A stretch of DNA of 64,000 nucleotides from a phage: assembly GCA_036252695.1 (NCBI GenBank), contig GCA_036252695.1_4122.1, one strand, 5' to 3'. Position 1 is the stretch's first letter. Each line of letters opens with the position of its first letter. Positions 33,240 to 54,316 of the stretch are shown piece after piece. The notes under the pieces were generated by a model. That model made no database searches, was not told the DNA's origin, and was given only the letters and a program-made list of their open reading frames with translations. The translations under genes were made by a program, and so were the position numbers.

Positions 33240-35200
33240 TATAGACAGGGGAAGCTCCGTAGGGAAAGCATTGGACAGGCTTTAACATATGTTATATATG
33301 TTAAAATTCAGCCTGCTCGACGTCTGAATTGTTAAAATTCAGCCTGGACAAATGCGATCACTAGGATTCTCCCCAGGCTAAACCCCGTAATCATATGTAG
33401 TCATAAGTAATCATATATAAACATTTATATTAGCACCGTAGAATCACAGAATGATTATATATGATTCAGTACTGATTAGTATAGACAAGATTGCTCAAGA
33501 TTGCTCAAGAATGCTAGGGAAGGATTCAGTACTGCCCCAAAAGTATTCAGTACTGAAGGTGTCGATATCCCACTAAGTAGGCAGAGGAAGTCTGCCGTAC
33601 TTTGTAGTTTCCAAGCTCCTTTTCCATTTTGCAAATTACATCAAATGTAATCAAAAGTAATCACGCAATGATTAGTACTGAATTATTACTTTCACCTTAA
33701 TTACAATTACCCTTTTACCAGTCGGGGTAAAATTCAATTACCCCTTGAGGCTCCAGCAAAAAGTTGGTTAGTACTCCATCCTAAATCTCGATCCTAAAAA
33801 TTTTGGAGTACCTATGAAATAAAAGTTGGATCTTCGAAAGTTGAAATTTACGTTGGGACGTTTATGATTTGTGGGATATAATGATGTTTGTAGTCGGGTA
33901 GTTCTCAAGAATATCAGTACTGAAAGATGAAAGAAAGTTATTGACTTTATGATTCAGTACTGTATAATGTTCTACATAGCTTCAAGGGGTGATGAGTTGC
34001 TGCGAACAATTCATTTACTCTACCTACTGTCGTGAGACAGTACAGAAAAGATAGTTCCTCCTATTGGTGGTACATCTTTTTGAACCTCATATGAAAATCG
34101 TAATAACAGTACTGATATTAACAGAATGGTATCAGTACTGATTTTAATCTAAAGCATTATGCCACCAGCACAAGCTGGTGGATTCCCTCTAACAGTATTC
34201 AGTACTACATGATAGTCTTCATCCTCCTAGGGTAACATAGTGAGGGCTATGATGGCAGTACTGAATACTCCCTTTCAAAAGATAGATCTATGGTATAGTA
34301 CTGACGGATTTTGGGTGTAGTTACCCTGGGTGGATTTTGGACGTAGATATGTCTAGCCCTCCAGAAGTCTGGAAGTAAAGATGGCTATCCATCTAGACGG
34401 CTAAACGGCTAGATTTCTGGATGGCTAGACGTTTGGACGGCTAAACGGCTAGATGGTTACACGTCTGGAAGTATAGACGGCTAAATCAAAATTTTATTTT
34501 GTTTTTTCCAATAGTTCCCCTACCGCGTGGGGATAGTTTCCCCGCAGTATCTGGAGTTAGATTTTTCTGAATCTGGAATCATTATCTTATAAACTGGGGG
34601 CAATGTCAACGGCCTGGACGGATATTTTTAAAAATTTTTTTCAGTACTGAATTTTGGGCGTAACTATGCACCCGGTGGGCTTGAGTCTTTCTCGACTTGA
34701 TGGAACTATTATACAGTACTGAAAAAAATAAAGCAATACCCTGGAAGCAAAAAAGTTTTAATTAATTTGCTTGCTATCCTGGGCCGGACTATGGTACTAT
34801 ATTTCAGTACTGAGAAAGTGCGTTTACCTGCTAGGGTGCGGGAGTGTATCCTTTTTTTATATCTTGAATTTTGGGCGTAATTCCGCACCCTCTGGGGTTT
34901 CCGCTTTCTCGCGTCTATGTAGTAATTATACGCTTTTTCAGGATCAAGTCAATACCTAAAAACAAAATAATTGAAAATAATTTAACGCGTTTAAACGGCC
35001 CGTAAAGCCCTGGAATGATTGGAATGGTGCAAATGTATAGCTTAGGTGTATTAATGCGTTAGAATGCGTCTGAGGCCGTTTTATGGGGTGTAGTAGTGAT
35101 TTGGTTGATTCAGTACTGAATGATAGTACTGAATAATAGTTCCCCTATATAGAAAGAAAACTATTTTAAAAGTACATGTAGAAAGTACTTGCAAACTATG
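33240..35200. repeat. ORF-free repeat-rich region (candidate origin, packaging site or regulatory hub)
   Basis: About 2 kb without a credible ORF; dense (T)CAGTACTGA palindromes (about 17 AGTACT by my read), short direct repeats (gattgctcaag x2, gttaaaattcagcct x2, gtaatca-type), and two ~60-bp related copies at ~34648..34715 and ~34865..34925. Confidence 0.6.
34380..34500. repeat. iteron-like direct repeats
   Basis: GACGGCTAAACGGCTAGAT at 34396..34414 and 34436..34454 plus partial copies (ggatggctagacg, gacggctaaatc) and TCTGGAAGTA twice. Confidence 0.6.
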
Positions 35201-35248
35201 TTTAAAGGCGTATAATGTTTTACATCGAGAGCGGGAACACTTCCCGCT
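35189..35248 (+). promoter_or_regulatory. early-type promoter (TTGCAA..TATAAT 35211..35216) plus 5' leader hairpin (35230..35248)
   Basis: aaagtacTTGCAAactatgtttaaaggcgTATAATgttttacatc then agcgggaa-cac-ttcccgct. Confidence 0.65.
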
Positions 35249-35271
35249 ACACTTTAAAAGAGATTAATACG

Positions 35272-35634
35272 ATGGCGACCCAAATCAATAAAATTATTGC
35301 TAACCTGGTCAACTTCCGTGAAGAGATGAAAGGTCTTCCGGCTGAAACGGTAAAAATTCACATTTCAGCTTATCGGGAACTTATTACAATGTTGCCGCTT
35401 AAGCGTGAACAATACGCCGCTACCGTGATGCTTGATGCGATGATCCATAAGATGATCGCCAGTGATTTAACGATGGTTTATCAGTATATGGGCGAAAATT
35501 TCGCGGTGTATAGTAAACCAGTACCAGGAATGGAAAGTACAGAAGTATTACACGGTTTAAATTTAAAACAAGATGCATGGGATAATATGCCTCGTTTCCT
35601 GGTATGGGCTGACAGTGGCAAAATTTACGAATAA
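35272..35634 (+). CDS. hypothetical early protein
   Basis: Start moved to Met downstream of promoter and leader hairpin (track ORF starts inside -10 box). Confidence 0.55.
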   Translation: MATQINKIIANLVNFREEMKGLPAETVKIHISAYRELITMLPLKREQYAATVMLDAMIHKMIASDLTMVYQYMGENFAVYSKPVPGMESTEVLHGLNLKQDAWDNMPRFLVWADSGKIYE

Positions 35635-35648
35635 GTTTAATAAAGTAC

Positions 35649-35707
35649 TTGCAAACTAAGTTTAAAAGCGTATAATGTTTTACATCAGGTGGGGAATAGT
35701 TCCCCAC
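35649..35707 (+). promoter_or_regulatory. early-type promoter plus leader hairpin
   Basis: TTGCAA 35649..35654, TATAAT 35671..35676, hairpin gtggggaa-tag-ttccccac 35689..35707. Confidence 0.65.
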
Positions 35708-35727
35708 TATATAAGAGGATTAAAAAA

Positions 35728-35967
35728 ATGGCTAAATCAAAAATGTTCTTAGGTCACAAAAACAAAACTCATTGGAATGTAAGCCTTTGGATTAATAACG
35801 ATGAGGCATTGTATCGGCTGGCCCAGGACTTTATTGCCGCCAATACTAATCGTAATGATGCGGCCCGTCATATGATGCTATTTTTAGAACAGACTGGGCA
35901 AGATAAAACTCCAGACGGCTTTAAGTATAGCACTACTGCGATCCGTGCGGCGATGGTTGGAATGTAA
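35728..35967 (+). CDS. hypothetical early protein (paralog of 37770..38009)
   Basis: SD aagagga; shares GHKNKTHWNVSLWINN...TPDGFKYSTTAIRAAMVGM with 37770 gene. Confidence 0.65.
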   Translation: MAKSKMFLGHKNKTHWNVSLWINNDEALYRLAQDFIAANTNRNDAARHMMLFLEQTGQDKTPDGFKYSTTAIRAAMVGM

Positions 35968-36055
35968 TAGAATAGAATTTATTTAAAGTACTATTGCACG
36001 GTGATAGTACTTTATAATAGTGTTTTATTCATACACCAACGATAAGGGCAACAGC

Positions 36056-36322: not shown

Positions 36323-36329
36323 AAAGTAC

Positions 36330-36389
36330 TTGCAAACTATGTTTAATGGCGTATAATGTTTTACATCGAGAGCGGGAACACTTCCCGCC
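36330..36389 (+). promoter_or_regulatory. early-type promoter plus leader hairpin
   Basis: TTGCAA 36330..36335, TATAAT 36352..36357, hairpin agcgggaacacttcccgc 36371..36389. Confidence 0.65.
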
Positions 36390-36409
36390 TATAACCTGGA
36401 GTAATAAAA

Positions 36410-36640
36410 ATGACTAATATGTATATGACTGAAGTTAAAACTGTAAAAGATACTACCACGAATAAAACTACTTACTTACAGCGGATCTGCGGTGTATGGC
36501 AACGTATCAGCAAATCAAAGTACTATAAATTAACATCATATGCAAACCGTTCGGATTCATTCAGTACTGAAATAAAAGGTAATAAAGTACACCAATACGG
36601 CACTTATTATTATTATAGCCTGGACGCGATTGCAGTATAA
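36410..36640 (+). CDS. hypothetical early protein
   Basis: 76-aa ORF with SD ggag. Confidence 0.55.
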   Translation: MTNMYMTEVKTVKDTTTNKTTYLQRICGVWQRISKSKYYKLTSYANRSDSFSTEIKGNKVHQYGTYYYYSLDAIAV

Positions 36641-36887: not shown

Positions 36888-36915
36888 TTGCAAACTATGT
36901 TTAAAGGCGTATAAT
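36888..36915 (+). promoter_or_regulatory. early-type promoter (upstream of structured element)
   Basis: TTGCAA 36888..36893, TATAAT 36910..36915. Confidence 0.6.
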
Positions 36916-36924
36916 GTTTTACAT

Positions 36925-37004
36925 CAGGACGGGGAACGAAATAAGTAACTTCCCGTTAAGTAGCCCAGGAGTAAGGCACACGAAAAACTCCCCTGATAAA
37001 ATAG
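36925..37004 (+). ncRNA. candidate structured RNA element / long leader (copy 1)
   Basis: ~80 nt between two tandem promoters; near-identical copy at 47900..47979 (3 substitutions) while flanks diverge; internal complementary arms (cgggga..tcccg; cagg..ctcccctg). Confidence 0.4.
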
Positions 37005-37005
37005 T

Positions 37006-37035
37006 TTGACAAATGTTTTTTTAAAAGCGTATAAT
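37006..37035 (+). promoter_or_regulatory. sigma70-type promoter
   Basis: TTGACA 37006..37011, 18-nt spacer, TATAAT 37030..37035. Confidence 0.6.
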
Positions 37036-37067
37036 ACTTACATCAACTACTGAATGAGGGTTACAAA

Positions 37068-37679
37068 ATGAAAACTATCACTACTACTACTTATGTTATG
37101 GATTTTTCTGAATTGAACGCAGAACAAAAAACGTCAGCTATCGAACTGGTTCGGGATCGTGAGCGTTCATGCGGTGATTATTTCTTTTCTGAGGGCGTAT
37201 ACGAATACTATAAAGAAACAATTTTGCCGGAGTATGGCATTGATGACGCTGATTTGCAATTCAGTGGTTTTTGGTCGCAAGGTGACGGTGCATCAATTAG
37301 TACTGACCACGTTGACGCAGTGAAGTTTTTACGTAAGGTAAGAGCATTAACTAAGTATCGCTCAATCCGGCACCTGCTGAATGAAGATGATTTGGCGATG
37401 AGTGTAAAGCGTTATCACTACCACTACTCGCATGAGAATACTGTAAGCGGGTACATTGAATCGGCTTACACTGATTTAACCGCAAAACAAGAAACGTTAG
37501 TTAATGAGCTTGAGGAACTACTCACTGACACTATTCGTGAATTGTCCCGCAAGTTGTACCGTGATTTAGAGAATGCATATGAGGATCAATTCACTACTGA
37601 AAACATTACGGCACTGATTGAGGGTAACGAATATCAATTCAATGTTATTGATGGCGTAGTAGAATCAATCGAATATTAA
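37068..37679 (+). CDS. hypothetical protein (203 aa)
   Basis: ORF with SD gaggg; E. coli-like codons. Confidence 0.7.
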   Translation: MKTITTTTYVMDFSELNAEQKTSAIELVRDRERSCGDYFFSEGVYEYYKETILPEYGIDDADLQFSGFWSQGDGASISTDHVDAVKFLRKVRALTKYRSIRHLLNEDDLAMSVKRYHYHYSHENTVSGYIESAYTDLTAKQETLVNELEELLTDTIRELSRKLYRDLENAYEDQFTTENITALIEGNEYQFNVIDGVVESIEY

Positions 37680-37769
37680 TTTAAAAAGTACTTGCAAACT
37701 AAGTTTAAAAGCGTATAATACTTTATATCGAGGCGGGGAGTGGTTCCCCGCTCAAACGAGGATTTAAAA

Positions 37770-38009
37770 ATGGCTAGTACTAAAACTTACAACGGACACA
37801 AAAACAAAACTCATTGGAATGTAAGCCTTTGGATTAATAACGGTGAGTCATTGTATCGGCTTGCTCAAAGTTGCATCGCACAAAGTAGAACTAAAGATAT
37901 TGCAGCGGAATGTATGTACCGCAGATTAAAAGCCAACGGTACTACTACAACGCCGGACGGCTTTAAGTATAGCACTACTGCGATCCGTGCTGCAATGGTT
38001 GGAATGTAA
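37770..38009 (+). CDS. hypothetical early protein (paralog of 35728..35967)
   Basis: Promoter TTGCAA/TATAAT (37714..37719) and hairpin 37734..37751 upstream. Confidence 0.65.
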   Translation: MASTKTYNGHKNKTHWNVSLWINNGESLYRLAQSCIAQSRTKDIAAECMYRRLKANGTTTTPDGFKYSTTAIRAAMVGM

Positions 38010-38067
38010 TATTCAGTACTGTAACAATGGCGGGGAATGGTTCCCGCCTTTATTGAGGGTTTATCTA

Positions 38068-38328
38068 ATGAGTAAAGTAATTAACTATACAGTACTAAGC
38101 AAGTCATTATCTATCAGTCATTGCACCGATGGTTATTGGCTATTTGATGAAACGCGTGGCATGAATTTAGCTATGCGTGCAAAAACTGCTGAGGCGGCGT
38201 ATATTCAAGCACTGGAATACTACCAGGAACGTTTAAAGGAAGTAGAAGAAGATTATAAAAGCCTCAAAGCGAAAGTAGATCATTTCGTCGGTCAATTCAT
38301 CGAGGAAGACGACGACAAACAATATTGA
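38068..38328 (+). CDS. hypothetical early protein
   Basis: Start after hairpin ggcggggaatggttcccgcc (38029..38048) and SD gaggg. Confidence 0.55.
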   Translation: MSKVINYTVLSKSLSISHCTDGYWLFDETRGMNLAMRAKTAEAAYIQALEYYQERLKEVEEDYKSLKAKVDHFVGQFIEEDDDKQY

Positions 38329-38336: not shown

Positions 38337-38396
38337 TTGCAATTAGTTTCAAGTACTGTATAATGGTTTACATCAAAGGGGGAAATGGTTCTCCCT
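38337..38396 (+). promoter_or_regulatory. early-type promoter plus leader hairpin
   Basis: TTGCAA 38337..38342, TATAAT 38359..38364, hairpin agggggaaatggttctccct 38377..38396. Confidence 0.6.
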
Positions 38397-38414
38397 GGTA
38401 ATGAGGAAAATAAA

Positions 38415-38636
38415 ATGGCTAATATCACTACTCTTTCCCAACTGGAAGCACTGGTTAAATCTATGCGGGAACATGCCGACAAAATCGGCGTACAAGATCC
38501 AGCCGTTTGCTTCTGCGACGAATTGAATGATGATACACTGGTAATAGCAGAAGTCCAGGACGTTTCTAACTATTCCTCGCGTTACACTGGCGGCGTAGCA
38601 AATAAAGGTGACTTCTGTTTATACCTTACAAAATAA
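38415..38636 (+). CDS. hypothetical early protein
   Basis: Start at Met after leader hairpin; SD gagga. Confidence 0.55.
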   Translation: MANITTLSQLEALVKSMREHADKIGVQDPAVCFCDELNDDTLVIAEVQDVSNYSSRYTGGVANKGDFCLYLTK

Positions 38637-38640
38637 CAAC

Positions 38641-38671
38641 GCGGGGAGATAATAACTCCCCGTTACTTTTT
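38641..38671 (+). terminator. intrinsic terminator
   Basis: cggggag-ataataa-ctccccg followed by T run. Confidence 0.55.
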
Positions 38672-38804: not shown

Positions 38805-38858
38805 TTGCAATTAGTTTTTAAACGCGTATAATGTTTTGCATAGGGGGAGCGGTTCCCC
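38805..38858 (+). promoter_or_regulatory. early-type promoter plus leader hairpin
   Basis: TTGCAA 38805..38810, TATAAT 38827..38832, hairpin gggggagcggttcccc 38843..38858. Confidence 0.6.
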
Positions 38859-38879
38859 TGGTAACTAAGGAATAATAAA

Positions 38880-39137
38880 ATGCTTGAACAAATCAAATCA
38901 ACGTCTGCGAATGTAACGGGAACGGTAGCACACTTTACTAGTGATGAATCGCGGGGCGTTCCCTATTGTGCTGTACATGTAAACACTGAGGGTAACTACT
39001 GGTTTACGGTTTACGGATCATATTCATTTGGACGGCCAGGGCATCAAAAAATTCTGGATAAAGTACAACCAACGGGTAAAAATATCACTGCCGAAATGTT
39101 TTATAAAAATCATAAAGTACTTGATAATAGTTTTTAG
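38880..39137 (+). CDS. hypothetical early protein
   Basis: 85-aa ORF, SD aagga. Confidence 0.6.
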   Translation: MLEQIKSTSANVTGTVAHFTSDESRGVPYCAVHVNTEGNYWFTVYGSYSFGRPGHQKILDKVQPTGKNITAEMFYKNHKVLDNSF

Positions 39138-39199
39138 TACTGTATAATATTTTACATCGCAAGGGGGAGCGGTTCCCCCTGGTAACTAAGGATAATCAA

Positions 39200-39499
39200 A
39201 TGAAAATTGCAATCATCGCCCTGGCTTTATCTGTTTCCTCTTTCGCTGTTAATGCGTCATTAGATGTAAGTAGTGAAAAATTCATTCAGTGCACTGTTGC
39301 AATGACCGATGAAAGAACTGGCGAGATTGTATTAAAGGATTTAGAGATCCAGCCAGAAGCATTTAAAAACGGGCCGTTCCATGAAGAAGACGAAAAAGGT
39401 AGCACGACAATTTATTACGATGCAAGTACTAAACGCGGTTCGGTCACTGTTATGGATACTGAGAAAGTAACTCATACTGGCGTTATTAATTGCCGTTGA
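39200..39499 (+). CDS. small secreted/periplasmic protein (predicted signal peptide)
   Basis: N-term MKIAIIALALSVSSFAVNA-S fits signal peptidase I pattern; promoter and hairpin upstream. Confidence 0.6.
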   Translation: MKIAIIALALSVSSFAVNASLDVSSEKFIQCTVAMTDERTGEIVLKDLEIQPEAFKNGPFHEEDEKGSTTIYYDASTKRGSVTVMDTEKVTHTGVINCR

Positions 39500-40515: not shown

Positions 40516-40751
40516 TGTTTATCGTTTACCAGGCCACCAGCACCGCCTAGAATCGATTCTAACGCATTAAACTGATTATCTGATGCATCGCCCTAGCTGG
40601 TGGCGTTAAGGTCGTTAGAATGCGATTGAGAGCGTTTAAAGTATTTTGCAAAAAGTAATAAAAAGTACTTGCACGATTAAGAGATTAGCGTATAATGTTT
40701 TACATCGAGAGGGGGAAACGGTTCTCCTTCCAAATCAAAGGAATTAAAACA

Positions 40752-40979
40752 ATGGCTATCGTAATCACTCGCGTAACTGGTACTACTGGCAATTCTTCTA
40801 CTGTTGCTGTAATTACTAATAAGAAAGGTGCGGAACTACATTTTGCAATGTATAACTGGTCAGTTGATGAGTTTGGTCAGTACGCTAGTGTAGAATACAT
40901 TGAAACCTATCAAGTGCCGTCGATTAGTTTAACTGATTTGGGCGTTGAGCGTATCCTTTGCCTGGATGAATTAAATTAA
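40752..40979 (+). CDS. hypothetical early protein
   Basis: Start MAIVITRV after promoter and hairpin gggggaaacggttctcc. Confidence 0.55.
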   Translation: MAIVITRVTGTTGNSSTVAVITNKKGAELHFAMYNWSVDEFGQYASVEYIETYQVPSISLTDLGVERILCLDELN

Positions 40980-41065
40980 AAAAGTACTTGCAAAGTAAAT
41001 CGAATAAAGTATAATACATTACATCAAGGGGAGAAATGGTTCTCCCTGATAATGAGGAAACTAAT

Positions 41066-41209
41066 ATGAAAACTTGTCAATGTGGTAAAAAATCTATTAC
41101 TGGTTTAAAGCGGGGCGTTGCTCTTTGTCAGTACCATTATAATTTACAAGTATGGGGTAAAGAATGGGCCGACCAGGTGGAAGCAGCAAAGAAAGCAAAA
41201 AGTAAGTAA
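41066..41209 (+). CDS. small Cys-containing protein (47 aa; CQCG..CQYH)
   Basis: Hand-translated ORF behind promoter and hairpin with SD gagga; below track cutoff. Confidence 0.4.
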   Translation: MKTCQCGKKSITGLKRGVALCQYHYNLQVWGKEWADQVEAAKKAKSK

Positions 41210-42487: not shown

Positions 42488-42697
42488 ATGCTTACTGTAC
42501 AGGATAAGATCGACATCTTAAAGGTTAATATGTATGTGATTGATGCCGTACCTGGTAAAGTATTTGCATACGATGATTCTAATCGCAGTCCGTTTTATTG
42601 CAGTCATGTAGTTGGATACGTGCCGTTGGCGTATGTTATAGAAAGAGTGGTTGATGCAGCATACAAACATTTTTTAGAAAATAATACTTGCAATTAG
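42488..42697 (+). CDS. hypothetical protein
   Basis: Start at internal Met MLTVQDK right after upstream stop. Confidence 0.45.
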   Translation: MLTVQDKIDILKVNMYVIDAVPGKVFAYDDSNRSPFYCSHVVGYVPLAYVIERVVDAAYKHFLENNTCN

Positions 42698-42767
42698 TTT
42701 TCAGTACTGTATAATGATTTACATCGAGAGCGGGAATAGTTCCCGCCTCACTTTTAAGGAATATGAA

Positions 42768-46395: not shown

Positions 46396-46467
46396 TACTT
46401 GCATTTAGTTTTCAGTACTGTTATAGTACTTACATCAAGGGGAAACGTCTTCCCCTACTAAGAGGAA

Positions 46468-46662
46468 ATGAAAATGGAAAACTTATCAAGTATTTTAGTA
46501 CAAGATGATTTCGGTAATCCTGGAAGTGCTATCATAGTTCGGGGCAATAAAGCAACGTTTGTTCTTGCTGGTGGGCCAGTACAGCGTAGCATTAAAAATA
46601 ATGCTGTTACCATTAATAATGTACGCTATCGCTTAGATAAAGAATTAATTAAAAATATGTAA
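46468..46662 (+). CDS. hypothetical early protein
   Basis: Promoter, hairpin ggggaaacgtcttcccc, SD gagga. Confidence 0.55.
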   Translation: MKMENLSSILVQDDFGNPGSAIIVRGNKATFVLAGGPVQRSIKNNAVTINNVRYRLDKELIKNM

Positions 46663-47011: not shown

Positions 47012-47095
47012 AAACTATTGACAATGCAATCCAGTACTGTATAATAAGTTACATGAAGGGGAGAAATGATTCTCCCCAGTACTGAGGAAAGAAAA

Positions 47096-47308
47096 ATGCA
47101 AGGTCAACTAATCGTTCGTAAATGGTCTGATACTAACGCTAAACCGTGGGATGTACAATACATCGCCCCCAATGGTGAATCCAGATATCAACCAGGTGTA
47201 ACGCATAGTACTGAGCAATTTGCCGCCGCTCACCGTGAACGACTGTTACAATCCATGCAGCAAGGCTTCGGTGAAAAATTCATTCAGGATCATTGGCTGA
47301 AAGATTAA
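47096..47308 (+). CDS. hypothetical early protein
   Basis: Promoter TTGACA..TATAAT, hairpin ggggagaaatgattctcccc, SD gagga. Confidence 0.55.
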   Translation: MQGQLIVRKWSDTNAKPWDVQYIAPNGESRYQPGVTHSTEQFAAAHRERLLQSMQQGFGEKFIQDHWLKD

Positions 47309-47394
47309 AAAGTACTTGCACAGTACTGAATAAAGTGTATAATGTTTTATATCGAGAGGGGAACTATTCCCCTCCTAACAAAAAGGAAAGTATA

Positions 47395-47568
47395 ATGATC
47401 CAAGTAGAATTATCAGTACTGAAAGATCTATTTTATCGGTTAGGTACTAATGGCGAGTATCCTAAAAGTGATACCGCAAAACTTTTTGTATCACTCGACT
47501 TATGGCAACGCGAACAATTAGTAATGTCGTGGCGTAAAGGTAAAGCAGATCGCGAGGTGAAAGCATGA
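47395..47568 (+). CDS. hypothetical small protein (57 aa)
   Basis: Start after promoter, hairpin gaggggaactattcccctc and SD aagga. Confidence 0.45.
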   Translation: MIQVELSVLKDLFYRLGTNGEYPKSDTAKLFVSLDLWQREQLVMSWRKGKADREVKA

Positions 47569-47714: not shown

Positions 47715-47899
47715 AAATAATTGAAAAAGGGATTGACTCCGGTCAATCCCTTTGCTATTATATACGCATAGAAACAAATTAGCCCACCGGGTGCATAAAT
47801 GTATCTATTGTTTGCTGGTGGCTAGTACTATCAAGTACTGAAAACTATTTTTAAAAAAGTACTTGCATTGTACTTAGAATCAAGTATAATGTTTTACAT

Positions 47900-47979
47900 C
47901 AGGACGGGGAACGAAATAAGTAACTTCCCGTTAAGTAGTCCAGGAGTAAGACATACGAAAAACTCCCCTGATAAAATAG
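47900..47979 (+). ncRNA. candidate structured RNA element / long leader (copy 2)
   Basis: Near-identical to 36925..37004; again sits between two tandem promoters. Confidence 0.4.
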
Positions 47980-48040
47980 TTTGACAATAGAAATTAAACG
48001 AGTATAATACTTACATCAACCACTGATAAGGAAACATAAA

Positions 48041-48316
48041 ATGCGGATTCTACTGACAGCTAACGAAATCGAACAAGTACTGACTACTAACCTGGAAGAC
48101 TGGAAACGTGAAGCAGATATCCAGTCGGTTCAATGGCTTAACGATAAGTTAACGCCGGATGACTTAAGCAAGATTGTAGATCCTCAATTCTACGAAGATA
48201 TCCACGACACCGCGTTAAGCGTCGAGGATGTACTAGATAAGCACTTTATTGATACAGATTTGCAGGTTTACGGTCGTAAAAACTTTATCACTATTCACGA
48301 CATTTACAATACTTAA
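48041..48316 (+). CDS. hypothetical protein
   Basis: 91-aa ORF with SD aagga behind second tandem promoter. Confidence 0.6.
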   Translation: MRILLTANEIEQVLTTNLEDWKREADIQSVQWLNDKLTPDDLSKIVDPQFYEDIHDTALSVEDVLDKHFIDTDLQVYGRKNFITIHDIYNT

Positions 48317-48319
48317 GTA

Positions 48320-48382
48320 TTGACAAAGTATCTTAGTACTGTATAATAGTTTACATCAAGTGAGGGGAAACGGTTCCCCTCC
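48320..48382 (+). promoter_or_regulatory. class-3 promoter plus leader hairpin
   Basis: TTGACA 48320..48325, TATAAT 48342..48347, hairpin gaggggaaacggttcccctc 48363..48382; near-identical copy ~48593..48650. Confidence 0.6.
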
Positions 48383-48404
48383 TAACAAAGAGAGAGAAAT
48401 AAAA

Positions 48405-48587
48405 ATGGCTAAGTGCACTATCTGCAAGAAAGAAATAGTATTAGTTCCAAGTGCCCGTGAACGTGCCGCTCGGTTTGGTGGCAAAGCGTCAGACTATACA
48501 AAAATGTTTACTGCCCATACAGCTTGCCAGGTAGCAAAACGTTCACAAGAAAGCGTAGAATTAATGCGTAAACTTTCCAAAAAATAA
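48405..48587 (+). CDS. small putative zinc-ribbon protein
   Basis: MAKCTICKKE...HTACQ (CxxC ... HxxC); SD gagaga. Confidence 0.5.
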   Translation: MAKCTICKKEIVLVPSARERAARFGGKASDYTKMFTAHTACQVAKRSQESVELMRKLSKK

Positions 48588-48674
48588 GTATTGACAAAGT
48601 ATCTTAGTACTGTATAATAGTTTACATCAAGTGAGGGGAATGGTTCCCCTCCTAACAAAAAGAGAGAAATTAAA

Positions 48675-48998
48675 ATGACTATGATCCTTACCCAGAAAGT
48701 AGAAATGAAAATTGTAACTTCCTTTGACATTAAAGTTAATCGGTGGACTGATAGCCACGGCAATACTTACCACTCATGCTACGTGTCTGCATTGATTGGT
48801 GACCGCTGGGAAGACCTGGGACATGAAACCTTTACTTACGGTTACGGTACACAAGGCGAATACACGGGCTTGGAGATCATTAAAGAAACCGTTATAGGTT
48901 TCAACCCGAAAGAAAAAGTTATTCACCGCATCGAGGAAGAGATCAACAAAGAAATTACAGTTCGTTACTACGATGTAAAACGTAAGAAAGACATGTAA
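48675..48998 (+). CDS. hypothetical protein (paralog of 41591..41914)
   Basis: Shares RWTDSHGNTYHSCYVS motif. Confidence 0.65.
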   Translation: MTMILTQKVEMKIVTSFDIKVNRWTDSHGNTYHSCYVSALIGDRWEDLGHETFTYGYGTQGEYTGLEIIKETVIGFNPKEKVIHRIEEEINKEITVRYYDVKRKKDM

Positions 48999-49493: not shown

Positions 49494-49555
49494 TAACTTT
49501 GCAGTACTAACAACACGGCGGGAACTATTCCCGCCTTTTTTATAGGATAAACAAA

Positions 49556-49810
49556 ATGATTAAGGTTCAACTATCAAACGATAATGTATTACGGGTACAC
49601 TATAAAGCCCCACAGAGAATCATCACAAAGGCCGTACAGCTTGCTAATGAGTTTATTAATGGTAGTCTATTGCCTAGGAAGTTAAGCAACGGGAAACTAC
49701 GTGTTATCGATGTAGACACTAACAATAGAATAGTGATCGAGAGTACTGGAAAAATTAATCTATATGAACACCAACAATACAATAAAAAAATAAAACTAAT
49801 ATCACGTTGA
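49556..49810 (+). CDS. hypothetical protein
   Basis: 84-aa ORF after hairpin ggcgggaactattcccgcc plus T run. Confidence 0.5.
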   Translation: MIKVQLSNDNVLRVHYKAPQRIITKAVQLANEFINGSLLPRKLSNGKLRVIDVDTNNRIVIESTGKINLYEHQQYNKKIKLISR

Positions 49811-51003: not shown

Positions 51004-51227
51004 AAAAGATTAAAAAAGGGATTGACTCCAGTCAGTCCCTTTGCTATTATATATTCATTGAGAGATAACTCACTGACCCATAGGGTGCGGAAGTGTATCT
51101 ATTATATAAGTATTCAGTACTGAAAACTATTTTATAAAAAGTACTTGCAAACTATCTCAATGAGCGTATAATGTTTTATATCGAGAGGGGGAAATGGTTC
51201 TCCCTGGTACTAAAAGGAATCAAGACG

Positions 51228-51449
51228 ATGACTACTATGACATGCGTTCACGCTTCAAATCTTCTGAATGATGCAGCATTTAAAGCAGGTGAAGAATATC
51301 AATGCTATCGGGATGAAAATAAAAAAGTTTTCGTCGTTGATGCTAACGGTTTCCATATTGAATTACAATCCGGCTTCACTGGTGTTGATGGTAAATCAGT
51401 ATGGGGCGTACAGGATGATAACGGTACATATCATTTTAAACGTAATTAA
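51228..51449 (+). CDS. hypothetical early protein
   Basis: Promoter, hairpin gagggggaaatggttctccct, SD aagga. Confidence 0.55.
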   Translation: MTTMTCVHASNLLNDAAFKAGEEYQCYRDENKKVFVVDANGFHIELQSGFTGVDGKSVWGVQDDNGTYHFKRN

Positions 51450-51533
51450 GTATTGACAAAGTATATCAGTACTGTATAATAGTTTACATCAAGGGGAGAA
51501 TAGCTCTCCCCACCAATAAAAGGAAACAAAATT

Positions 51534-51806
51534 ATGTCCAGCTACTCCGCTACTATGATTATTAAAGATATGAACGGTAATCCTACTTCTGCTGGTGGAT
51601 CATTTGGTAACATTAATTTAGATGGGCGGTTATCAATTGAATCAGCCATCAATGCAGCGAAAGAAGTTTTTAAGAATGAATGTACTGTAAGCAAACTGGA
51701 TTATATGGGCTTCGCTATCGAGAAAACTAATCGTTTTGTGGACTACAAAAAACCACTGATGATTGATACTAACCTGAAAGCAAACGAAGTGGAATACTTA
51801 TTATGA
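51534..51806 (+). CDS. hypothetical early protein
   Basis: Class-3 promoter, hairpin ggggagaatagctctcccc, SD aagga. Confidence 0.6.
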   Translation: MSSYSATMIIKDMNGNPTSAGGSFGNINLDGRLSIESAINAAKEVFKNECTVSKLDYMGFAIEKTNRFVDYKKPLMIDTNLKANEVEYLL

Positions 51807-51994: not shown

Positions 51995-52077
51995 AAAGTA
52001 CTTGCATTGTAAGTAAAACAAAGTATAATGTTTTACATAGGGGGAGATATCCTCCCCCACTAATAAGGAGTACTAAA

Positions 52078-52302
52078 ATGGCTAACTTTGATGAACTGAT
52101 GCGGGAAGTAGCTACCCTGGCAGAAGAGAAGAAATCATTTGATTCTATCTATAACACCGCTTACAGTGATTCAGTACTGGCATGTACTCAGGATCAAAAA
52201 GATGAACTGATCGCCACCTATCATGAAGCATGGAAGTATTACCGCCAATGGGAGAAAGAAGAAAGCGAGTCTACCATCAACGGCATCAATAATCTAATCT
52301 AA
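52078..52302 (+). CDS. hypothetical early protein
   Basis: Promoter, hairpin gggggagatatcctccccc, SD aaggag. Confidence 0.6.
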   Translation: MANFDELMREVATLAEEKKSFDSIYNTAYSDSVLACTQDQKDELIATYHEAWKYYRQWEKEESESTINGINNLI

Positions 52303-52635: not shown

Positions 52636-52723
52636 AAACTATTTGACAGTACTACAAGATAATGTATAATGTTTTACATAGAGCGGGGGAATAGTTCTCC
52701 CGCACCTTTAGGAGTAAAACATT

Positions 52724-52924
52724 ATGTCAATCGCTAACGAATTGGTTGCAGTACTGAATGAAGCAAAAGCCAACTGCATCGATGTACAGATCAAAGAGCT
52801 TGGCAATGGCTTGATCGGCTGTACTTGTACAGTGCAAACGGCTACCGATTATCGGGAAGTGGAATCACTCGAATCACTGGTACGGTATATTAAAATCCTG
52901 GTAGAAGATTGGAGAATCATCTAA
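52724..52924 (+). CDS. hypothetical early protein
   Basis: Promoter, hairpin gcgggggaatagttctcccgc, SD aggag. Confidence 0.55.
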   Translation: MSIANELVAVLNEAKANCIDVQIKELGNGLIGCTCTVQTATDYREVESLESLVRYIKILVEDWRII

Positions 52925-53182
52925 CAAAAAAGAATAAAAAAAAGGGATTGACTCCGGTCAGTCCCTTTGCTATTATATACGCATAGACAAAAACTAGCCC
53001 ACAGGGTGCAGAGAAGTATCTATAAGATAGTTAATAACGGTGAGTAACTATCTGCTGGTGGATGTAATGCCAGTACTCAAAACTATTTCAAAAAAAGTAT
53101 TGACAAAGTATATCAGTACTGAGATAATGTATCTCGTAGGGCGGCAATAGTGCAGCCCACCTCCAAAAGAGCGAGATATAAA

Positions 53183-53398
53183 ATGGCGTTAACCAAACAA
53201 GAAATTATCGACCGTATCAAAGAGTCAACTGGCTGGTATGTTGGGGACCGTTTAATTGTTAAAGTTCTCGATTATTCAAATAATCCTCTTGCACCGGAAC
53301 CAGTGGCATACAAATTATCCTGGATATCTGCGTTTAGCGGTAAGCGTGAAAGATGTGTGTACTATCCGAACACAGTCGGGCTACAGTTCTGTAAATAA
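53183..53398 (+). CDS. hypothetical protein
   Basis: Start MALTKQE after class-3 promoter and hairpin gggcggcaatagtgcagccc. Confidence 0.5.
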   Translation: MALTKQEIIDRIKESTGWYVGDRLIVKVLDYSNNPLAPEPVAYKLSWISAFSGKRERCVYYPNTVGLQFCK

Positions 53399-53498
53399 AT
53401 TTTAATAGAAAAAGTATTGACAAAGTATATCAGTACTGCAATAATGTATCTCGTAGGGCGGCAATGGTGCGACGGCCCACAAAGTTAGGAGATTCACC

Positions 53499-53825
53499 AT
53501 GAGTACTTCAATCGCTATCGTTAAAGCTTTCATCCGTACCAATTTCGACCGCATTACTGTTGATGGTAATGATCGGGAAGTAGAATACTCTTTCATTGTT
53601 GCACAAACCGCAAACGGTGCACGCTATATCTTAAACGATAGTGAAGCTAACCACTACTTCTATAATAAAGGATTACACTACATCCCTAGCGAAGTAGTCT
53701 ACAGTAAGATGAATAAGCTGGTAGACAAGATTAACGCTAAAGGTACTATCGATTTACAGTACTGGACCGAAACCGATCCAGAATACGGATCACATCGTTA
53801 CCTGAATCCAGGAATTAAAATGTAA
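53499..53825 (+). CDS. hypothetical protein
   Basis: 108-aa ORF, SD aggaga, class-3 promoter upstream. Confidence 0.6.
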   Translation: MSTSIAIVKAFIRTNFDRITVDGNDREVEYSFIVAQTANGARYILNDSEANHYFYNKGLHYIPSEVVYSKMNKLVDKINAKGTIDLQYWTETDPEYGSHRYLNPGIKM

Positions 53826-53914
53826 AAAGTACTTGCATTGTACTTAGAATCAAGTATAATGTTTTACATAGAGAGGGGGAAATGGTTCTCCCTCCTAAAT
53901 TAAGGAGTTTTATC

Positions 53915-54316
53915 ATGACCTTCTCAATCACTTCCTTCGCTGACGTTTTAGTACTGGCTCGGACTTTTGGTAAAGATGCACTGGAGTACGCTGTAAGTAA
54001 TGGCACTCTCCAACCGGAACAATGCCGCATCATTGGAAACTGCAAACGTTGGGCGGTATCCAATACTATTGCACTAGAAAACTTCAACGATGGTAACAAT
54101 GAGTATTCAGTTGATGCAGTATTCGAAGCCGTTGATCTTGGCGGTATCTATAACACTAACCTAAATGATGTGCGTATCGTTCGCACGGGGTTCGGTGCTT
54201 ATGATGTATCTATCCGTGAAGCTATGAACACCGGATACATTAGTAAGGACTTACTTGCTCACATCATGCAGCTATGGACGGAACGTAACGAAGCACGCAC
54301 TATCTTAGGGCTGTAA
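53915..54316 (+). CDS. hypothetical protein (133 aa)
   Basis: Promoter, hairpin gagagggggaaatggttctccctc, SD aaggag. Confidence 0.65.
   Translation: MTFSITSFADVLVLARTFGKDALEYAVSNGTLQPEQCRIIGNCKRWAVSNTIALENFNDGNNEYSVDAVFEAVDLGGIYNTNLNDVRIVRTGFGAYDVSIREAMNTGYISKDLLAHIMQLWTERNEARTILGL

What the first reader, a model, noticed from the sequence alone, without database searches (positions are those of the whole stretch)
35189..54100. Conserved 5' leader hairpin (GGGGAA-loop-TTCCCC) directly after ~24 early promoters
Nearly every early-type promoter (..AGTACTTGCAA..N..GTATAATGTTTTACATC..) is followed within ~10 nt by a 6-8-bp G/C stem of the form GGGGA(A/G)..loop..TTCCCC. Examples: agcgggaacacttcccgct 35230..35248, gtggggaatagttccccac 35689..35707, gaggggaaacggttcccctc 48363..48382. 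Stem sequence varies but the pattern persists, so the structure is probably selected. It could be a 5' mRNA stabiliser, a translational operator for a phage RNA-binding protein, or a DNA operator for coordinated shut-off.
Basis: seen in the sequence. Interest (0 to 1): 0.7.

Follow-up and report, generated by a model that had tools for sequence, protein, structure and literature searches.

The report
Leader hairpins in phage early-gene cassettes
About two dozen strong early promoters of this giant E. coli phage are each followed by a short G/C-rich RNA hairpin, a ribosome-binding site and a small gene. These repeated units resemble the "mobile regulatory cassettes" known from T4-like phages, but here the hairpin lies inside the transcript, and what it does there is still unproven.

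Summary
The window is an Asteriusvirus (a PBECO4/G17-like jumbo coliphage).

- **Architecture.** Between 35.2 and 53.9 kb, 23 of 32 consensus sigma70 promoters on the + strand carry the hairpin. It starts 8-14 nt after TATAAT, has a 7-9 bp stem with a G-rich 5' arm and C-rich 3' arm, and a loop of 3-5 nt. A further 17-23 nt containing a Shine-Dalgarno sequence then lead to the ATG. The background rate is 0.9% per site (P about 1e-40). Six more copies are degenerate, promoter-less or long-loop variants.
- **Selection.** Pairing is selected in the sense-strand RNA. In 49 distinct hairpins from five genomes, every one of the seven inner pairs shows double-sided changes. Covariation is 0.50 against 0.21 in shuffles. 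There are 23 G.U cells and no A.C, while loops drift freely.
- **Spread.** The same architecture fills the early region of unrelated phi92-like phages. Indel junctions between close relatives fall in cassettes (8 of 12).

These are PeSL-like mobile early-gene cassettes with the stem-loop in the transcribed leader and without a U-tract. The function is inferred only. It is most likely an mRNA-fate element that leaves the ribosome-binding site open, but the predicted 5' tail (1-7 nt) is longer than in classical 5'-terminal stabilisers. The DNA-operator, nut-like and intrinsic-terminator readings are disfavoured. I rate it a new variant of a known kind, of moderate interest.

The parts
35189..35274 (+). 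Cassette 1: -35/-10 at 35189-35216, leader hairpin 35230-35248 (AGCGGGAA cac TTCCCGCT), ATG 35272 (120-aa ORF)
   Evidence: leader fold z = -3.3
35649..35730 (+). Cassette 2: promoter 35649-35676, hairpin 35688-35708, ATG 35728
   Evidence: indel junction with PBECO4 lies inside it
36330..36412 (+). Cassette 3: promoter 36330-36357, hairpin 36372-36388, ATG 36410
37692..37772 (+). Cassette 4: promoter 37692-37719, hairpin 37732-37752, ATG 37770
   Evidence: the PBECO4 orthologue has paired indels in both arms
38337..38417 (+). Cassette 5: promoter 38337-38364, hairpin 38377-38396 (interior G.U), ATG 38415
   Evidence: G.U becomes A-U in Turkey3
38805..38882 (+). Cassette 6: promoter 38805-38832, hairpin 38841-38860, ATG 38880
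39121..39202 (+). Cassette 7: promoter 39121-39148, hairpin 39162-39180, ATG 39200
40669..40754 (+). Cassette 8: promoter 40669-40696, hairpin 40709-40730 (two G.U), ATG 40752
40988..41068 (+). Cassette 9: promoter 40988-41015, hairpin 41028-41047, ATG 41066
42688..42770 (+). Cassette 10: promoter 42688-42715, hairpin 42730-42746 (stem-loop identical to a phi92 cassette), ATG 42768
   Evidence: together with cassette 11 it flanks an ORF that PBECO4 lacks
42918..42999 (+). Cassette 11: promoter 42918-42945, hairpin 42956-42975, ATG 42997
43257..43337 (+). Cassette 12: promoter 43257-43284, hairpin 43297-43316, ATG 43335
43849..43930 (+). Cassette 13: promoter 43849-43876, hairpin 43890-43908, ATG 43928
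44285..44369 (+). Cassette 14: promoter 44285-44312, hairpin 44325-44344, ATG 44367
46399..46470 (+). Cassette with degenerate promoter (TTGCAT 46399 ... TTATAG 46421), hairpin 46438-46456, ATG 46468
   Evidence: boundary of an indel relative to PBECO4
47018..47098 (+). Cassette 15: promoter 47018-47045, hairpin 47058-47077, ATG 47096
47316..47397 (+). Cassette 16: promoter 47316-47343, hairpin 47356-47374, ATG 47395
   Evidence: loop is cta here and tag in Turkey3, an inversion
48320..48407 (+). Cassette 17: promoter 48320-48347, hairpin 48362-48381, ATG 48405
48591..48677 (+). Cassette 18: promoter 48591-48618, hairpin 48633-48651, ATG 48675
51145..51230 (+). Cassette 19: promoter 51145-51172, hairpin 51186-51205 (interior G.U), ATG 51228
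51453..51536 (+). Cassette 20: promoter 51453-51480, hairpin 51493-51511, ATG 51534
52002..52080 (+). Cassette 21: promoter 52002-52029, hairpin 52040-52058, ATG 52078
   Evidence: Turkey3 and PBECO4 carry an extra gene between two cassettes here, and the aligned blocks overlap at 51993-52048
52643..52726 (+). Cassette 22: promoter 52643-52670, hairpin 52683-52703 (interior G.U), ATG 52724
53833..53917 (+). Cassette 23: promoter 53833-53860, hairpin 53873-53894 (interior G.U), ATG 53915
38029..38070 (+). Hairpin 38029-38048 plus SD plus ATG 38068, preceded only by a weak promoter-like remnant (TTGGAA-N17-TAACAA)
49517..49558 (+). Hairpin 49517-49535 without a promoter, followed by T6, an SD and ATG 49556
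38640..38662 (+). Family hairpin CGCGGGGAG-ataataa-CTCCCCG directly after the stop codon of ORF 38415-38636, followed by ttacTTTTT (terminator-like use)
36888..37070 (+). Long variant: promoter 36888-36915, 75-nt structured leader 36923-36997 (5' AUCAGG pairs with CCUGAU; inner ACGGG..CCCGU stem with a long loop), second promoter 37006-37035 without hairpin, ATG 37068
47863..48043 (+). Second copy of the long variant: promoter 47863-47890, structured leader 47898-47972, second promoter 47981-48008, ATG 48041

Best explanation
Each unit is a compact, repeated early-gene expression cassette. It consists of an A-rich upstream stretch, a near-consensus sigma70 promoter (AGTACTTGCAA/TTGACA - N17 - TATAAT), a conserved start region (GTTTTACATC), a 17-22 nt G-rich/C-rich hairpin, 17-23 unstructured nucleotides carrying the Shine-Dalgarno sequence, and the ATG of a small gene of unknown function.

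**Shown.**
- The hairpin is real, and its pairing is under selection in the sense-strand RNA.
- It lies between the -10 element and the Shine-Dalgarno sequence at a fixed distance from both.
- The cassettes are sites of gene gain, loss and exchange between closely related phages.
- The same architecture occurs in unrelated phi92-like coliphages.

**Inferred.**
- Host RNA polymerase starts at the A of ACATC, so the hairpin is the first structure of a roughly 50-nt leader, 1-7 nt from the 5' end.
- It acts on the fate of the mRNA rather than on DNA.
- It folds the G-rich start of the transcript into a closed module. The ribosome-binding site therefore stays open whatever gene is plugged in.
- It protects the transcript ends from exonucleolytic or 5'-end-dependent decay. 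This would apply to the 5' end of the cassette's own transcript and to the 3' end of read-through transcripts from the gene upstream.

As roughly 100-bp repeats, the cassettes also serve as homologous recombination sites that shuffle early genes, as proposed for PeSLs in T4-like phages.
For: **Association and geometry.**
- 23 of 32 promoters carry the hairpin against a 0.9% background (P = 2.5e-40).
- The distance from -10 to the hairpin is 8-14 nt, and from the hairpin to the ATG 17-23 nt, in 23 of 23 copies.

**RNA-level selection.**
- In 26 distinct window copies the inner 7 pairs are 100% paired, and 6 of 7 positions show double-sided changes. Covariation is 0.399 against 0.202 in shuffles (0 of 500 reach it) and at most 0.183 when slid.
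- In 49 distinct hairpins from five genomes, all 7 inner pairs show double-sided changes (47 cells). Covariation is 0.504 against 0.208 (0 of 500).
- There are 23 G.U cells, no U.G, and no A.C in the cores, including with a mismatch finder that gives no credit to G.U.
- The sense-strand RNA is 3-6.5 kcal/mol more stable than the antisense in 7 copies, and never the reverse by more than 1.4.
- Native hairpins average -13.2 kcal/mol against -10.3 for arm-swapped chimeras.
- Orthologous stem changes in Turkey3 and PBECO4 all keep pairing, while loops change freely.

**Open ribosome-binding site.** Six complete leaders fold as a short tail, the hairpin, and a fully unpaired SD/AUG.

**Cassette behaviour.**
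- 8 of 12 structural junctions against Turkey3 and PBECO4 have a boundary in a cassette. That is 12 of 24 boundaries against 17.8% sequence coverage (P = 3e-4).
- Several junctions show a single cassette in one genome and two cassettes flanking an extra gene in the other.
- The genes driven by the cassettes are small and of unknown function.

**Spread.** phi92 and ESCO32 carry 12-13 cassettes of the same architecture with different stems. One window cassette matches phi92-like and Phapecoctavirus genomes at 76-88% identity from the -10 to the ATG, with no coding homology.

**Precedent.** PeSLs combine early promoters, polyG-loop-polyC stem-loops, an SD and an ATG, sit in variable regions and mediate shuffling (PMC2839356, PMC4122927).
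Against: - No transcription start, half-life or expression data exist for these phages in the literature I could search.
- With the predicted start, the unpaired 5' tail is usually 3-6 nt. Classical 5'-terminal stabilisers tolerate only a few unpaired nucleotides (my recollection of Emory et al. 1992). RppH-type enzymes need only 2-3 unpaired nucleotides (PMC3997798, which gives this figure for the B. subtilis enzyme).
- RNase E scanning readily bypasses a simple stem-loop (PMC9943677).
- Six early promoters in the same region work with short, unstructured leaders, so the hairpin is not essential for early expression.
- The constant polarity (G-rich arm first) and the shared GAA...TTC top of the stem could reflect common descent or recognition by a factor, rather than a generic structural role.
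- The enrichment of junctions in cassettes is not corrected for the fact that viable indels must lie between genes.
Confidence: 0.5

Rival explanations
1. The hairpin is an attenuator or terminator of the PeSL type. It would stop or dampen transcription reading in from the upstream gene, and possibly transcription from its own promoter, so that each small gene is expressed mainly from its own cassette.
For: - In RB49/phi1 a polyG-loop-polyC stem-loop from a PeSL, also without an obvious U-tract, reduced downstream lacZ as strongly as rrnB T1 (PMC2839356; RB49 sequences).
- Most genes here have no other terminator between them.
- Two family copies are used in terminator-like contexts: 38640-38662 followed by T5, and 49517-49535 followed by T6.
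Against: - 24 of 26 copies have at most 4 T in the 8 nt after the stem and no U-run.
- The hairpin lies downstream of its own promoter, so it would attenuate the very transcript it belongs to.
- The phage has separate, canonical terminators (AGCCCAC..GTGGGCT followed by T5 at 39758 and 40489) and terminator-promoter composites (43720, 47726, 51015, 52941) that already do this job.
Confidence: 0.12
2. The hairpin is an RNA tag bound by a trans-acting protein of the phage or the host. The protein could be an N/nut-like antiterminator, a translational repressor that shuts early genes off together, or a factor that shields phage early mRNAs while host mRNAs are destroyed.
For: - The polarity is constant, and the top of the stem (G-A-A ... 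T-T-C) is well conserved in both Asteriusvirus and phi92-like phages.
- The position just after the start site resembles nut sites.
- rV5 is reported to encode an Srd homologue (PMC3606486). T4 Srd stimulates RNase E (my recollection of Qi et al. 2015). Early phage mRNAs might therefore need a protective mark.
Against: - Loops are not conserved in length or sequence (3-5 nt; CAC, TAG, TGG, ATGG, ACGG, ATGA, AAAC, ATATC...) and even invert between orthologues.
- There is no boxA (CGCTCTTA) anywhere in the window and no GNRA-like pentaloop.
- The hairpin ends 8-12 nt before the Shine-Dalgarno sequence, so binding would not obviously occlude it.
- No candidate protein was identified.
Confidence: 0.15
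3. The element works as DNA. It would be either a palindromic operator for a repressor that shuts early promoters off, or a cruciform or hairpin that serves as a recombination hotspot for cassette shuffling. The RNA fold would then be a by-product.
For: - It is a near-perfect inverted repeat at +5 to +28, a classical operator position.
- Crossovers in RB49 PeSL mini-circles mapped to the stem-loop (PMC2839356).
- Loops are inverted between orthologues (cac/gtg, cta/tag), which is a DNA-level flip of a palindrome.
- Indel junctions fall in cassettes.
Against: - The arm-to-arm spacing varies from 3 to 5 nt (and 7 or about 14 in variants), which would rotate the half-sites.
- Every stem position varies with compensation, so there is no fixed half-site.
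- Non-Watson-Crick cells are G.T only in the sense-strand reading: 23 against no A.C. A duplex or cruciform would not make that distinction.
- Junctions lie mostly in the promoter part of the cassette rather than in the hairpin.
Confidence: 0.08
4. The hairpin mainly protects the upstream message. In polycistronic read-through transcripts it would act as an intercistronic 3' barrier to PNPase and RNase II after downstream cleavage, as REP-type stabilisers do.
For: - There are few terminators between genes, so read-through is likely.
- G/C-rich 7-9 bp stems of -11 to -16 kcal/mol are adequate exonuclease barriers.
- Promoter-less copies at 38029 and 49517 still sit between cistrons.
Against: - A 3' protector could lie anywhere after the stop codon. 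Here it is tied to a fixed place after the -10 element and before the Shine-Dalgarno sequence.
- It sits 60-100 nt beyond the upstream stop codon, on the far side of a promoter.
Confidence: 0.1

Closest known systems
PeSL (promoter-early stem-loop) mobile regulatory cassettes of T4-type phages RB49/phi1, PST/T4 and nt-1/KVP40 (Arbiol et al. 2010, PMC2839356; Comeau et al. 2014, PMC4122927)
   Same: - Repeated intergenic cassettes of about 100 bp: an AT-rich upstream stretch, a sigma70-like early promoter, a polyG-loop-polyC stem-loop with occasional G-T pairs, an SD and an ATG.
- Dense in a variable region of small genes of unknown function.
- Indels between close relatives are bounded by cassettes.
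- The window also holds six cassettes of the classical PeSL layout, with the stem overlapping the -35 (380, 2020, 43720, 47726, 51015, 52941).
   Different: - In RB49 the stem-loop lies mostly in the -35/-10 spacer or over a box. In PST and nt-1 it lies just upstream of the promoter. It is read as a terminator of upstream transcription.
- Here it lies after the predicted start site in at least 24 cassettes, inside the cassette's own leader, with no U-tract.
- There is no sequence homology to RB49 PeSLs.
- The host phages (Asteriusvirus jumbo phages and phi92-like Stephanstirmvirinae) are not T4-type phages.
5'-terminal stabilising stem-loops: ompA and papA 5' UTR hairpins, and the phage T7 gene 10 leader hairpin (GGGAGACCACAACGGUUUCCC) used in pET vectors (my own knowledge; references listed in PMC3997798)
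   Same: - A short G/C-rich hairpin at the start of an mRNA, followed by an unstructured, strong ribosome-binding site.
- The T7 example is also a phage leader with a G-rich 5' arm and a ...CGGUUUCCC 3' arm.
   Different: - Those hairpins begin at or within a few nucleotides of +1. Here the predicted unpaired tail is 1-7 nt (median 4-5), and the start site is unmapped.
- No half-life data exist.
Lambdoid nut sites (boxA plus boxB hairpin bound by N) and HK022 put RNAs
   Same: A small hairpin in the leader just downstream of early promoters, on the sense strand.
   Different: - No boxA, and no conserved GNRA-like pentaloop; loop length and sequence are free.
- There is one copy per gene rather than one per operon.
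- No N-like factor is known in these phages.
Intrinsic (Rho-independent) terminators and REP-like intercistronic stabilisers
   Same: G/C-rich stem of 7-9 bp in an intergenic position.
   Different: - No U-tract in 24 of 26 copies.
- The position is fixed relative to a promoter and an SD rather than to the upstream stop codon.

Membership tests
PeSL mobile regulatory cassettes | [quoted passage not shown] | tested here: met
   TTGCAA/TTGACA-N17-TATAAT preceded by A-rich runs in all cassettes
PeSL mobile regulatory cassettes | Stable stem-loop in the cassette, typically polyG-loop-polyC with some G-T pairs | tested here: met
   Stems of 7-9 bp, -11 to -16 kcal/mol, G-rich 5' arm and C-rich 3' arm, with G.T pairs
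PeSL mobile regulatory cassettes | Stem-loop placed upstream of, within or overlapping the promoter. [quoted passage not shown] | tested here: inconclusive
   Here the stem starts 8-14 nt after the -10, at or beyond the predicted +1. That is nearest to the rarest PeSL subclass but extends into the transcript. RB49 itself has the stem mostly in the spacer. Six other cassettes in the window do have the stem over the -35.
PeSL mobile regulatory cassettes | Shine-Dalgarno sequence and start codon at the 3' end of the cassette | tested here: met
   SD and ATG lie 17-23 nt after the hairpin in 23 of 23 cassettes
PeSL mobile regulatory cassettes | Concentrated in variable regions, next to small genes of unknown function | tested here: met
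   All copies lie within 35-54 kb. The ORFs are 47-133 aa, and the 10 scanned all fall in PHROG families of unknown function.
PeSL mobile regulatory cassettes | Insertions, deletions and replacements between close relatives are bounded by cassettes | tested here: met
   8 of 12 junctions and 12 of 24 boundaries lie in cassettes against 17.8% coverage (P = 3e-4). Junctions at 35.7, 42.7-42.9, 46.0-46.4 and 52.0 kb show one cassette in one genome and two in the other. The test is not corrected for the intergenic bias.
PeSL mobile regulatory cassettes | The stem-loop acts as a transcription terminator or attenuator; mini-circles form by recombination between cassettes | not testable with these tools
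   Needs reporter assays, in vitro transcription and inverse PCR. The sequence shows no U-tract.
PeSL mobile regulatory cassettes | Sequence homology to the RB49/phi1 elements | tested here: not met
   blastn-short of 23 cassettes against RB49 108-130 kb gives only a 20-nt A/T-rich match. The cassettes are analogues, as the authors also say of the T4 IP-locus elements.
5'-terminal mRNA-stabilising stem-loop (ompA / T7 gene 10 type) | Hairpin at the extreme 5' end, with no more than a few unpaired nucleotides before it | tested here: inconclusive
   The start site is not mapped. With +1 at the A of ACATC, the tail to the core stem is 1-7 nt (median 5), or 0-6 nt in the minimum-energy folds, which add bulged outer pairs.
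5'-terminal mRNA-stabilising stem-loop (ompA / T7 gene 10 type) | Lengthens mRNA half-life in an RNase E / RppH-dependent way | not testable with these tools
   No transcriptome or half-life data were found for Asteriusvirus, phi92 or rV5.
nut-type antitermination site | boxA consensus upstream of the hairpin, and a boxB with a conserved GNRA-like loop | tested here: not met
   CGCTCTTA and its variants are absent from the window. Loops are 3-5 nt and unconserved.
Intrinsic terminator | G/C-rich hairpin immediately followed by a U-run | tested here: not met
   At most 4 T in the 8 nt after the stem in 24 of 26 copies. Only 38029 (5 T) and 49517 (7 T) exceed that, and 38640 is followed by ttacTTTTT.
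Palindromic DNA operator | Fixed half-site sequence and fixed spacing, symmetric on both strands | tested here: not met
   Spacing is 3, 4 or 5 nt (7 and about 14 in variants). All stem positions covary. G.T occurs only in the sense-strand reading.
Any curated RNA family (Rfam 15) | Match at the gathering threshold | tested here: not met
   No matches in the whole window, and no tRNA or tmRNA.

The most novel reading that the evidence does not exclude
The leader hairpin is a portable 'early-transcript tag' that several unrelated lineages of large coliphages share by horizontal exchange of whole cassettes (Asteriusvirus jumbo phages, phi92-like phages and Phapecoctavirus). A common host or phage factor would read it to set phage early mRNAs apart from host mRNAs. 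It might spare them from phage-stimulated RNase E decay, or switch them off together at the early-to-middle transition.
Probability: 0.15. Interest if true: 0.7.

Novelty: new variant of a known kind. Interest (0 to 1): 0.45.

Why it matters
- **Unannotated structure.** A conserved RNA structure is present about 25 times per genome in a widespread group of therapeutic-candidate coliphages. It goes unannotated: G17's record marks only a few ARNold terminators, and the rV5, CBB and PA5oct papers list promoters only.
- **Extends the PeSL idea.** If the cassettes behave like PeSLs, the 'mobile regulatory cassette' concept reaches beyond T4-type phages to jumbo and phi92-like phages. It also gains a layout in which the stem-loop is part of the mRNA.
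- **A natural experiment.** Dozens of copies carry different stems in front of different genes, which allows a direct test of what a 5'-proximal hairpin does to bacterial mRNA fate during infection.
- **A usable part.** The unit is a ready-made, compact and strong expression cassette (promoter, insulating hairpin, open ribosome-binding site) for phage engineering.

Tried and rejected
- **Rfam and ARAGORN** on the whole window found nothing.
- **Plain MAFFT alignments** of the leaders or of hairpin plus flanks put the gaps at the ends and shifted the arms (A1, A2). I therefore counted pairs on loop-anchored, arms-only alignments (A5, A6).
- **The covariance-model alignment A4** mixes both strands and unrelated hairpins, so I used it only for discovery.
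- **CMSTMSU (L005)** shows homopolymer length errors in G and C runs and was left out of the covariation analysis.
- **boxA/nut:** absent.
- **Homology to RB49 PeSLs:** none.
- **IMG/VR scan** for TATAAT-N8-14-GGGGAA-N3-5-TTCCCC gave 120+ stretches. Only the Asteriusvirus contig carries several cassettes; the rest are single matches at about the number I expected by chance.
- **rV5, 118-138 kb:** only one clear cassette, so the architecture is not general there.
- **Alternative pairing of the C-rich 3' arm with the SD** (a switch): considered and dropped. The hairpin is 7-10 kcal/mol more stable, and all six complete leaders fold with the SD free.
- **Literature searches** for a prior description in Asteriusvirus, RaK2, CBB, PA5oct, rV5, phi92 or PVP-SE1 found none. 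The library lacks most subscription-journal papers, for example the PVP-SE1 and phi92 genome papers.

Full report
**What the window is.** The window is 94-96% identical to Escherichia jumbo phages of the genus Asteriusvirus (Turkey3, JNE01, BF17, phAPEC6, PBECO4, G17). One cassette is 100% identical to G17. GC skew changes sign near 33-34 kb: genes run on the - strand before that point and on the + strand after it.

**Checking the observation.**
- A generic sigma70 search finds 32 promoters there.
- Twenty-three of them are followed by a hairpin of 7-9 contiguous pairs with a 3-5 nt loop, starting 8-14 nt after TATAAT.
- The distance from the 3' end of the hairpin to the start codon is 17-23 nt in all 23, with a Shine-Dalgarno sequence in between.
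- Comparable hairpins occur in 0.9% of 42-nt windows elsewhere on the strand (binomial P = 2.5e-40). Shuffles of the same segments give 0.25 of 32.
- Further family members:
  - one behind a degenerate promoter (46438);
  - two without a good promoter (38029; 49517, which is followed by T6);
  - one directly after a stop codon and followed by T5 (38640);
  - two nearly identical long variants (36923-36997 and 47898-47972), in which the very 5' end AUCAGG pairs with CCUGAU and a second, hairpin-less promoter follows.
- Nine promoters lack the canonical short hairpin. Six have none at all, two carry the long variant, and 39862 is a degraded copy of it.

**Is the structure selected, and at what level?** MAFFT misaligned the arms, so I anchored each copy on its loop and aligned the arms only.
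- *Window copies (27 copies, 26 distinct).* The seven inner pairs are standard pairs in every copy, and six of the seven positions show changes on both sides. The covariation score is 0.399, against 0.202 +/- 0.021 in shuffles (0 of 500 reach it) and at most 0.183 when the partner column is slid.
- *Five genomes.* In 49 distinct hairpins from the window, Turkey3, PBECO4, phi92 and ESCO32, all seven inner positions show double-sided changes (47 cells). The score is 0.504 against 0.208 (0 of 500), and at most 0.201 when slid.
- *Caveat.* Copies were picked by a stem finder, so '100% paired' is partly built in. The shuffle and slide controls do not share that bias.
- *Arm swaps.* Swapping 3' arms between copies costs about 3 kcal/mol on average.
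- *Strand.* The strand can be told from the wobble pairs. There are 23 G.U cells and no U.G in the inner pairs. A finder that gives no credit to G.U sees G.T in about 14 distinct cores and A.C in none. Seven window copies are 3-6.5 kcal/mol more stable as sense RNA than as antisense RNA, and none is the reverse by more than 1.4.
- *Orthologues.* Between orthologues, stem changes are C-to-T giving G.U, G.U going to A-U, or paired indels. Loops change freely and twice appear as reverse complements (cac/gtg, cta/tag).
- *Reading.* I take this as selection for pairing in the + strand transcript, with occasional DNA-level flipping of the palindrome.

**Anatomy of the leader.**
- The promoters are near consensus (AGTACTTGCAA or TTGACA, 17-bp spacer, TATAAT), with an A-rich upstream stretch and a T-rich discriminator (GTTTTAC).
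- ACATC, or CACATA in phi92, is conserved whether or not a hairpin follows. By the usual rules (start 7-8 nt after the -10, pyrimidine at -1, purine at +1; my own knowledge) the start is the A of CAT. This is an inference.
- On that basis the tail before the core stem is 1-7 nt, with a median of 5. In the minimum-energy folds, which add bulged outer pairs such as GAG/CUC, it is 0-6 nt.
- Six complete leaders fold as tail, hairpin and a completely open SD/AUG, with z-scores of -1.6 to -3.7.

**The hairpin is one module of a repeated, recombining cassette.**
- Alignment of 33-56 kb with Turkey3 and PBECO4 gives collinear blocks broken at 12 places. Eight of these have a boundary in a cassette: 12 of 24 boundaries against 17.8% coverage, P = 3e-4.
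- At 35.64-35.72, 42.74/42.91, 45.99/46.41 and 51.99-52.05 kb, one genome has a single cassette where the other has two cassettes flanking an extra small gene. That is the pattern expected from homologous exchange between cassettes.
- The test is not corrected for the fact that viable indels are intergenic.
- The cassette-driven ORFs are 47-133 aa, and the ten scanned all belong to PHROG families of unknown function.

**The same architecture in unrelated phages.**
- A single window cassette matches phi92-like (Justusliebigvirus) and Phapecoctavirus genomes at 76-88% identity from the -10 to the ATG and no further.
- phi92 has 12 or more cassettes between 138 and 146.5 kb, and ESCO32 has 13 in 12 kb. 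They follow the pattern TTGACA-N17-TAnnnT, about 10 nt ending in CACATA, a hairpin such as GGCGGGAAA-tgg-TTTCCCGCC, GGGCGGCA-atag-TGCCGCTC or AGGCGGTGG-aatagc-CCACCGCCT, and then 20-23 nt to the ATG.
- One phi92 hairpin is identical to window 42730-42746.
- rV5 has few in the 20 kb I examined.

**Comparison with what is known.**
- *PeSLs.* PeSLs of T4-type phages are the closest described system. They have an AT-rich region, a sigma70-like early promoter, a polyG-loop-polyC stem-loop with G-T pairs, an SD and an ATG. They lie in variable regions next to orphan genes and mediate shuffling and mini-circle formation (PMC2839356, PMC4122927).
  - In RB49 the stem lies mostly in the -35/-10 spacer and the leader is unstructured. 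In PST and nt-1 the stem is just upstream of the promoter. The authors read it as a terminator.
  - Here that placement is the rule, it extends into the transcript, there is no U-tract and there is no sequence homology.
  - The window also holds six cassettes of the classical layout: AAAGGGATTGACTCCGGTCAATCCCTTT followed by GCTATTAT, with a 12-bp stem over the -35 and a U-rich tail. It also has ordinary terminators (39758, 40489). Termination is therefore already provided for.
- *Other candidates.*
  - nut sites are excluded: no boxA, free loops.
  - Intrinsic terminators are excluded: no U-run.
  - A palindromic operator is excluded: variable spacing, covarying half-sites, one-strand wobble.
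  - Curated RNA families give no match.

**Mechanism.**
- *What is shown.* This is a sense-strand RNA hairpin under selection, at a fixed place between the promoter and an open ribosome-binding site, inside a cassette that recombines.
- *What I infer.* It governs mRNA fate. It closes the G-rich start of the leader into an inert module, so the ribosome-binding site stays accessible for whatever gene follows. It also shields the ends of the transcript.
- *The weakest step.* Classical 5'-end protection is doubtful.
  - The predicted tail is usually 3-6 nt.
  - RppH-type enzymes need only 2-3 unpaired nucleotides (PMC3997798, which gives this figure for the B. subtilis enzyme).
  - RNase E scans past simple stem-loops (PMC9943677).
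- For these reasons I give the overall statement 0.5 and keep four rivals open: attenuator 0.12, protein-binding tag 0.15, DNA element 0.08, and 3' barrier for the upstream cistron 0.10.

**Novelty and score.**
- None of the accessible papers on Asteriusvirus, RaK2-like phages, rV5 or phi92 mentions these leader hairpins. G17's record does not annotate them.
- Because the cassette concept is published, I rate this a new variant of a known kind.
- Interest is moderate (0.45). The structure is real, abundant, shared across phage families and directly testable, but its function is unproven and it may turn out to be an ordinary leader stabiliser.

Noticed in passing
whole window, densest 28-56 kb: AGTACT occurs 265 times against 22.5 expected, and CAGTACTG 62 times against 0.9. 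It sits directly 5' of the -35 (AAAGTACTTGCAA) and of the -10 (AGTACTGTATAAT) of many early promoters. It is a candidate protein-binding or modification site, and a better candidate for a DNA operator than the hairpin.
   Followed up: partly
380-411, 2020-2047, 43720-43747, 47726-47753, 51015-51042, 52941-52968 (+): A second cassette family: AAAGGG-TTGACT-CCGG-TCAATCCCTTT followed by GCTATTAT or GCTATAAT. The 12-14 bp stem contains the -35, has a U-rich tail, and is followed by a -10 at the right spacing. This is the classical PeSL layout (terminator fused to promoter). Four of the copies lie about 100 nt upstream of a hairpin-type cassette.
   Followed up: partly
43780-43800, 47780-47800, 51075-51095, 52995-53015 (+); about 34690 and about 34905 (-): An invariant CCCA-N2-GGGTGC motif lies 25-40 nt downstream of six promoters: four of the second cassette family and two divergent - strand promoters. 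It is neither a hairpin nor a palindrome, and its function is unknown.
   Followed up: partly
7262, 8470, 15245, 16050, 17317, 18526, 19762, 20984, 25756 (+ coordinates): Nine GCCAGTAC-nnn-GTACTGGC palindromes lie in the - strand gene block, six of them about 1.2 kb apart (15245-20984). In PBECO4 the corresponding block holds ten paralogous genes annotated 'regulator of chromosome condensation' (RCC1-like). The palindromes are probably intergenic terminators or regulatory sites between these paralogues.
   Followed up: no
about 33300-35190: A stretch of about 1.9 kb without convincing ORFs lies between the divergent gene blocks. It contains promoter 33941-33968 (+), - strand promoters with their -35 elements at 34736 and 34952, a 14-bp-stem hairpin of CAGTACTG repeats at 34107-34140, and a G/C hairpin at 34162-34181. 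In G17 the homologous stretch is likewise free of annotated CDS and carries an ARNold terminator.
   Followed up: no
35238-35240 vs PBECO4 L004:17257; 47364-47366 vs Turkey3 L003:14955: The loops of orthologous hairpins are reverse complements of each other (cac/gtg, cta/tag) while the stems are unchanged. This is the signature of a DNA-level flip of a perfect palindrome.
   Followed up: partly
36888-37070 and 47863-48043 (+); degraded copy 39834-39975: Tandem-promoter units. A hairpin-type promoter drives a 75-nt leader whose first six nucleotides pair with CCUGAU. A second promoter without a hairpin and then the gene follow immediately. The two copies are nearly identical, so covariation cannot be assessed, and the z-scores are not significant. 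This could be a small RNA or a regulatory leader.
   Followed up: partly
35628-35969 and 37670-38011 (+): Two cassette-plus-gene units are paralogues. They are about 75% identical in DNA, and both ORFs fall in phrog_871. Whole cassette-gene modules therefore duplicate within the region.
   Followed up: no
L002/L006 (phi92, 138-146.5 kb), L007 (ESCO32): Unrelated phi92-like phages carry 12-13 promoter-hairpin-SD cassettes of the same architecture. One hairpin is identical to window 42730-42746, although the adjoining genes are not homologous. This suggests horizontal exchange of the regulatory cassette itself.
   Followed up: partly
L005 (CMSTMSU, MH494197.1): The G and C runs of the hairpins are one or two bases shorter than in all relatives, and the genes are fragmented. 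This looks like homopolymer sequencing error in that record, which is flagged UNVERIFIED_ORG.
   Followed up: no
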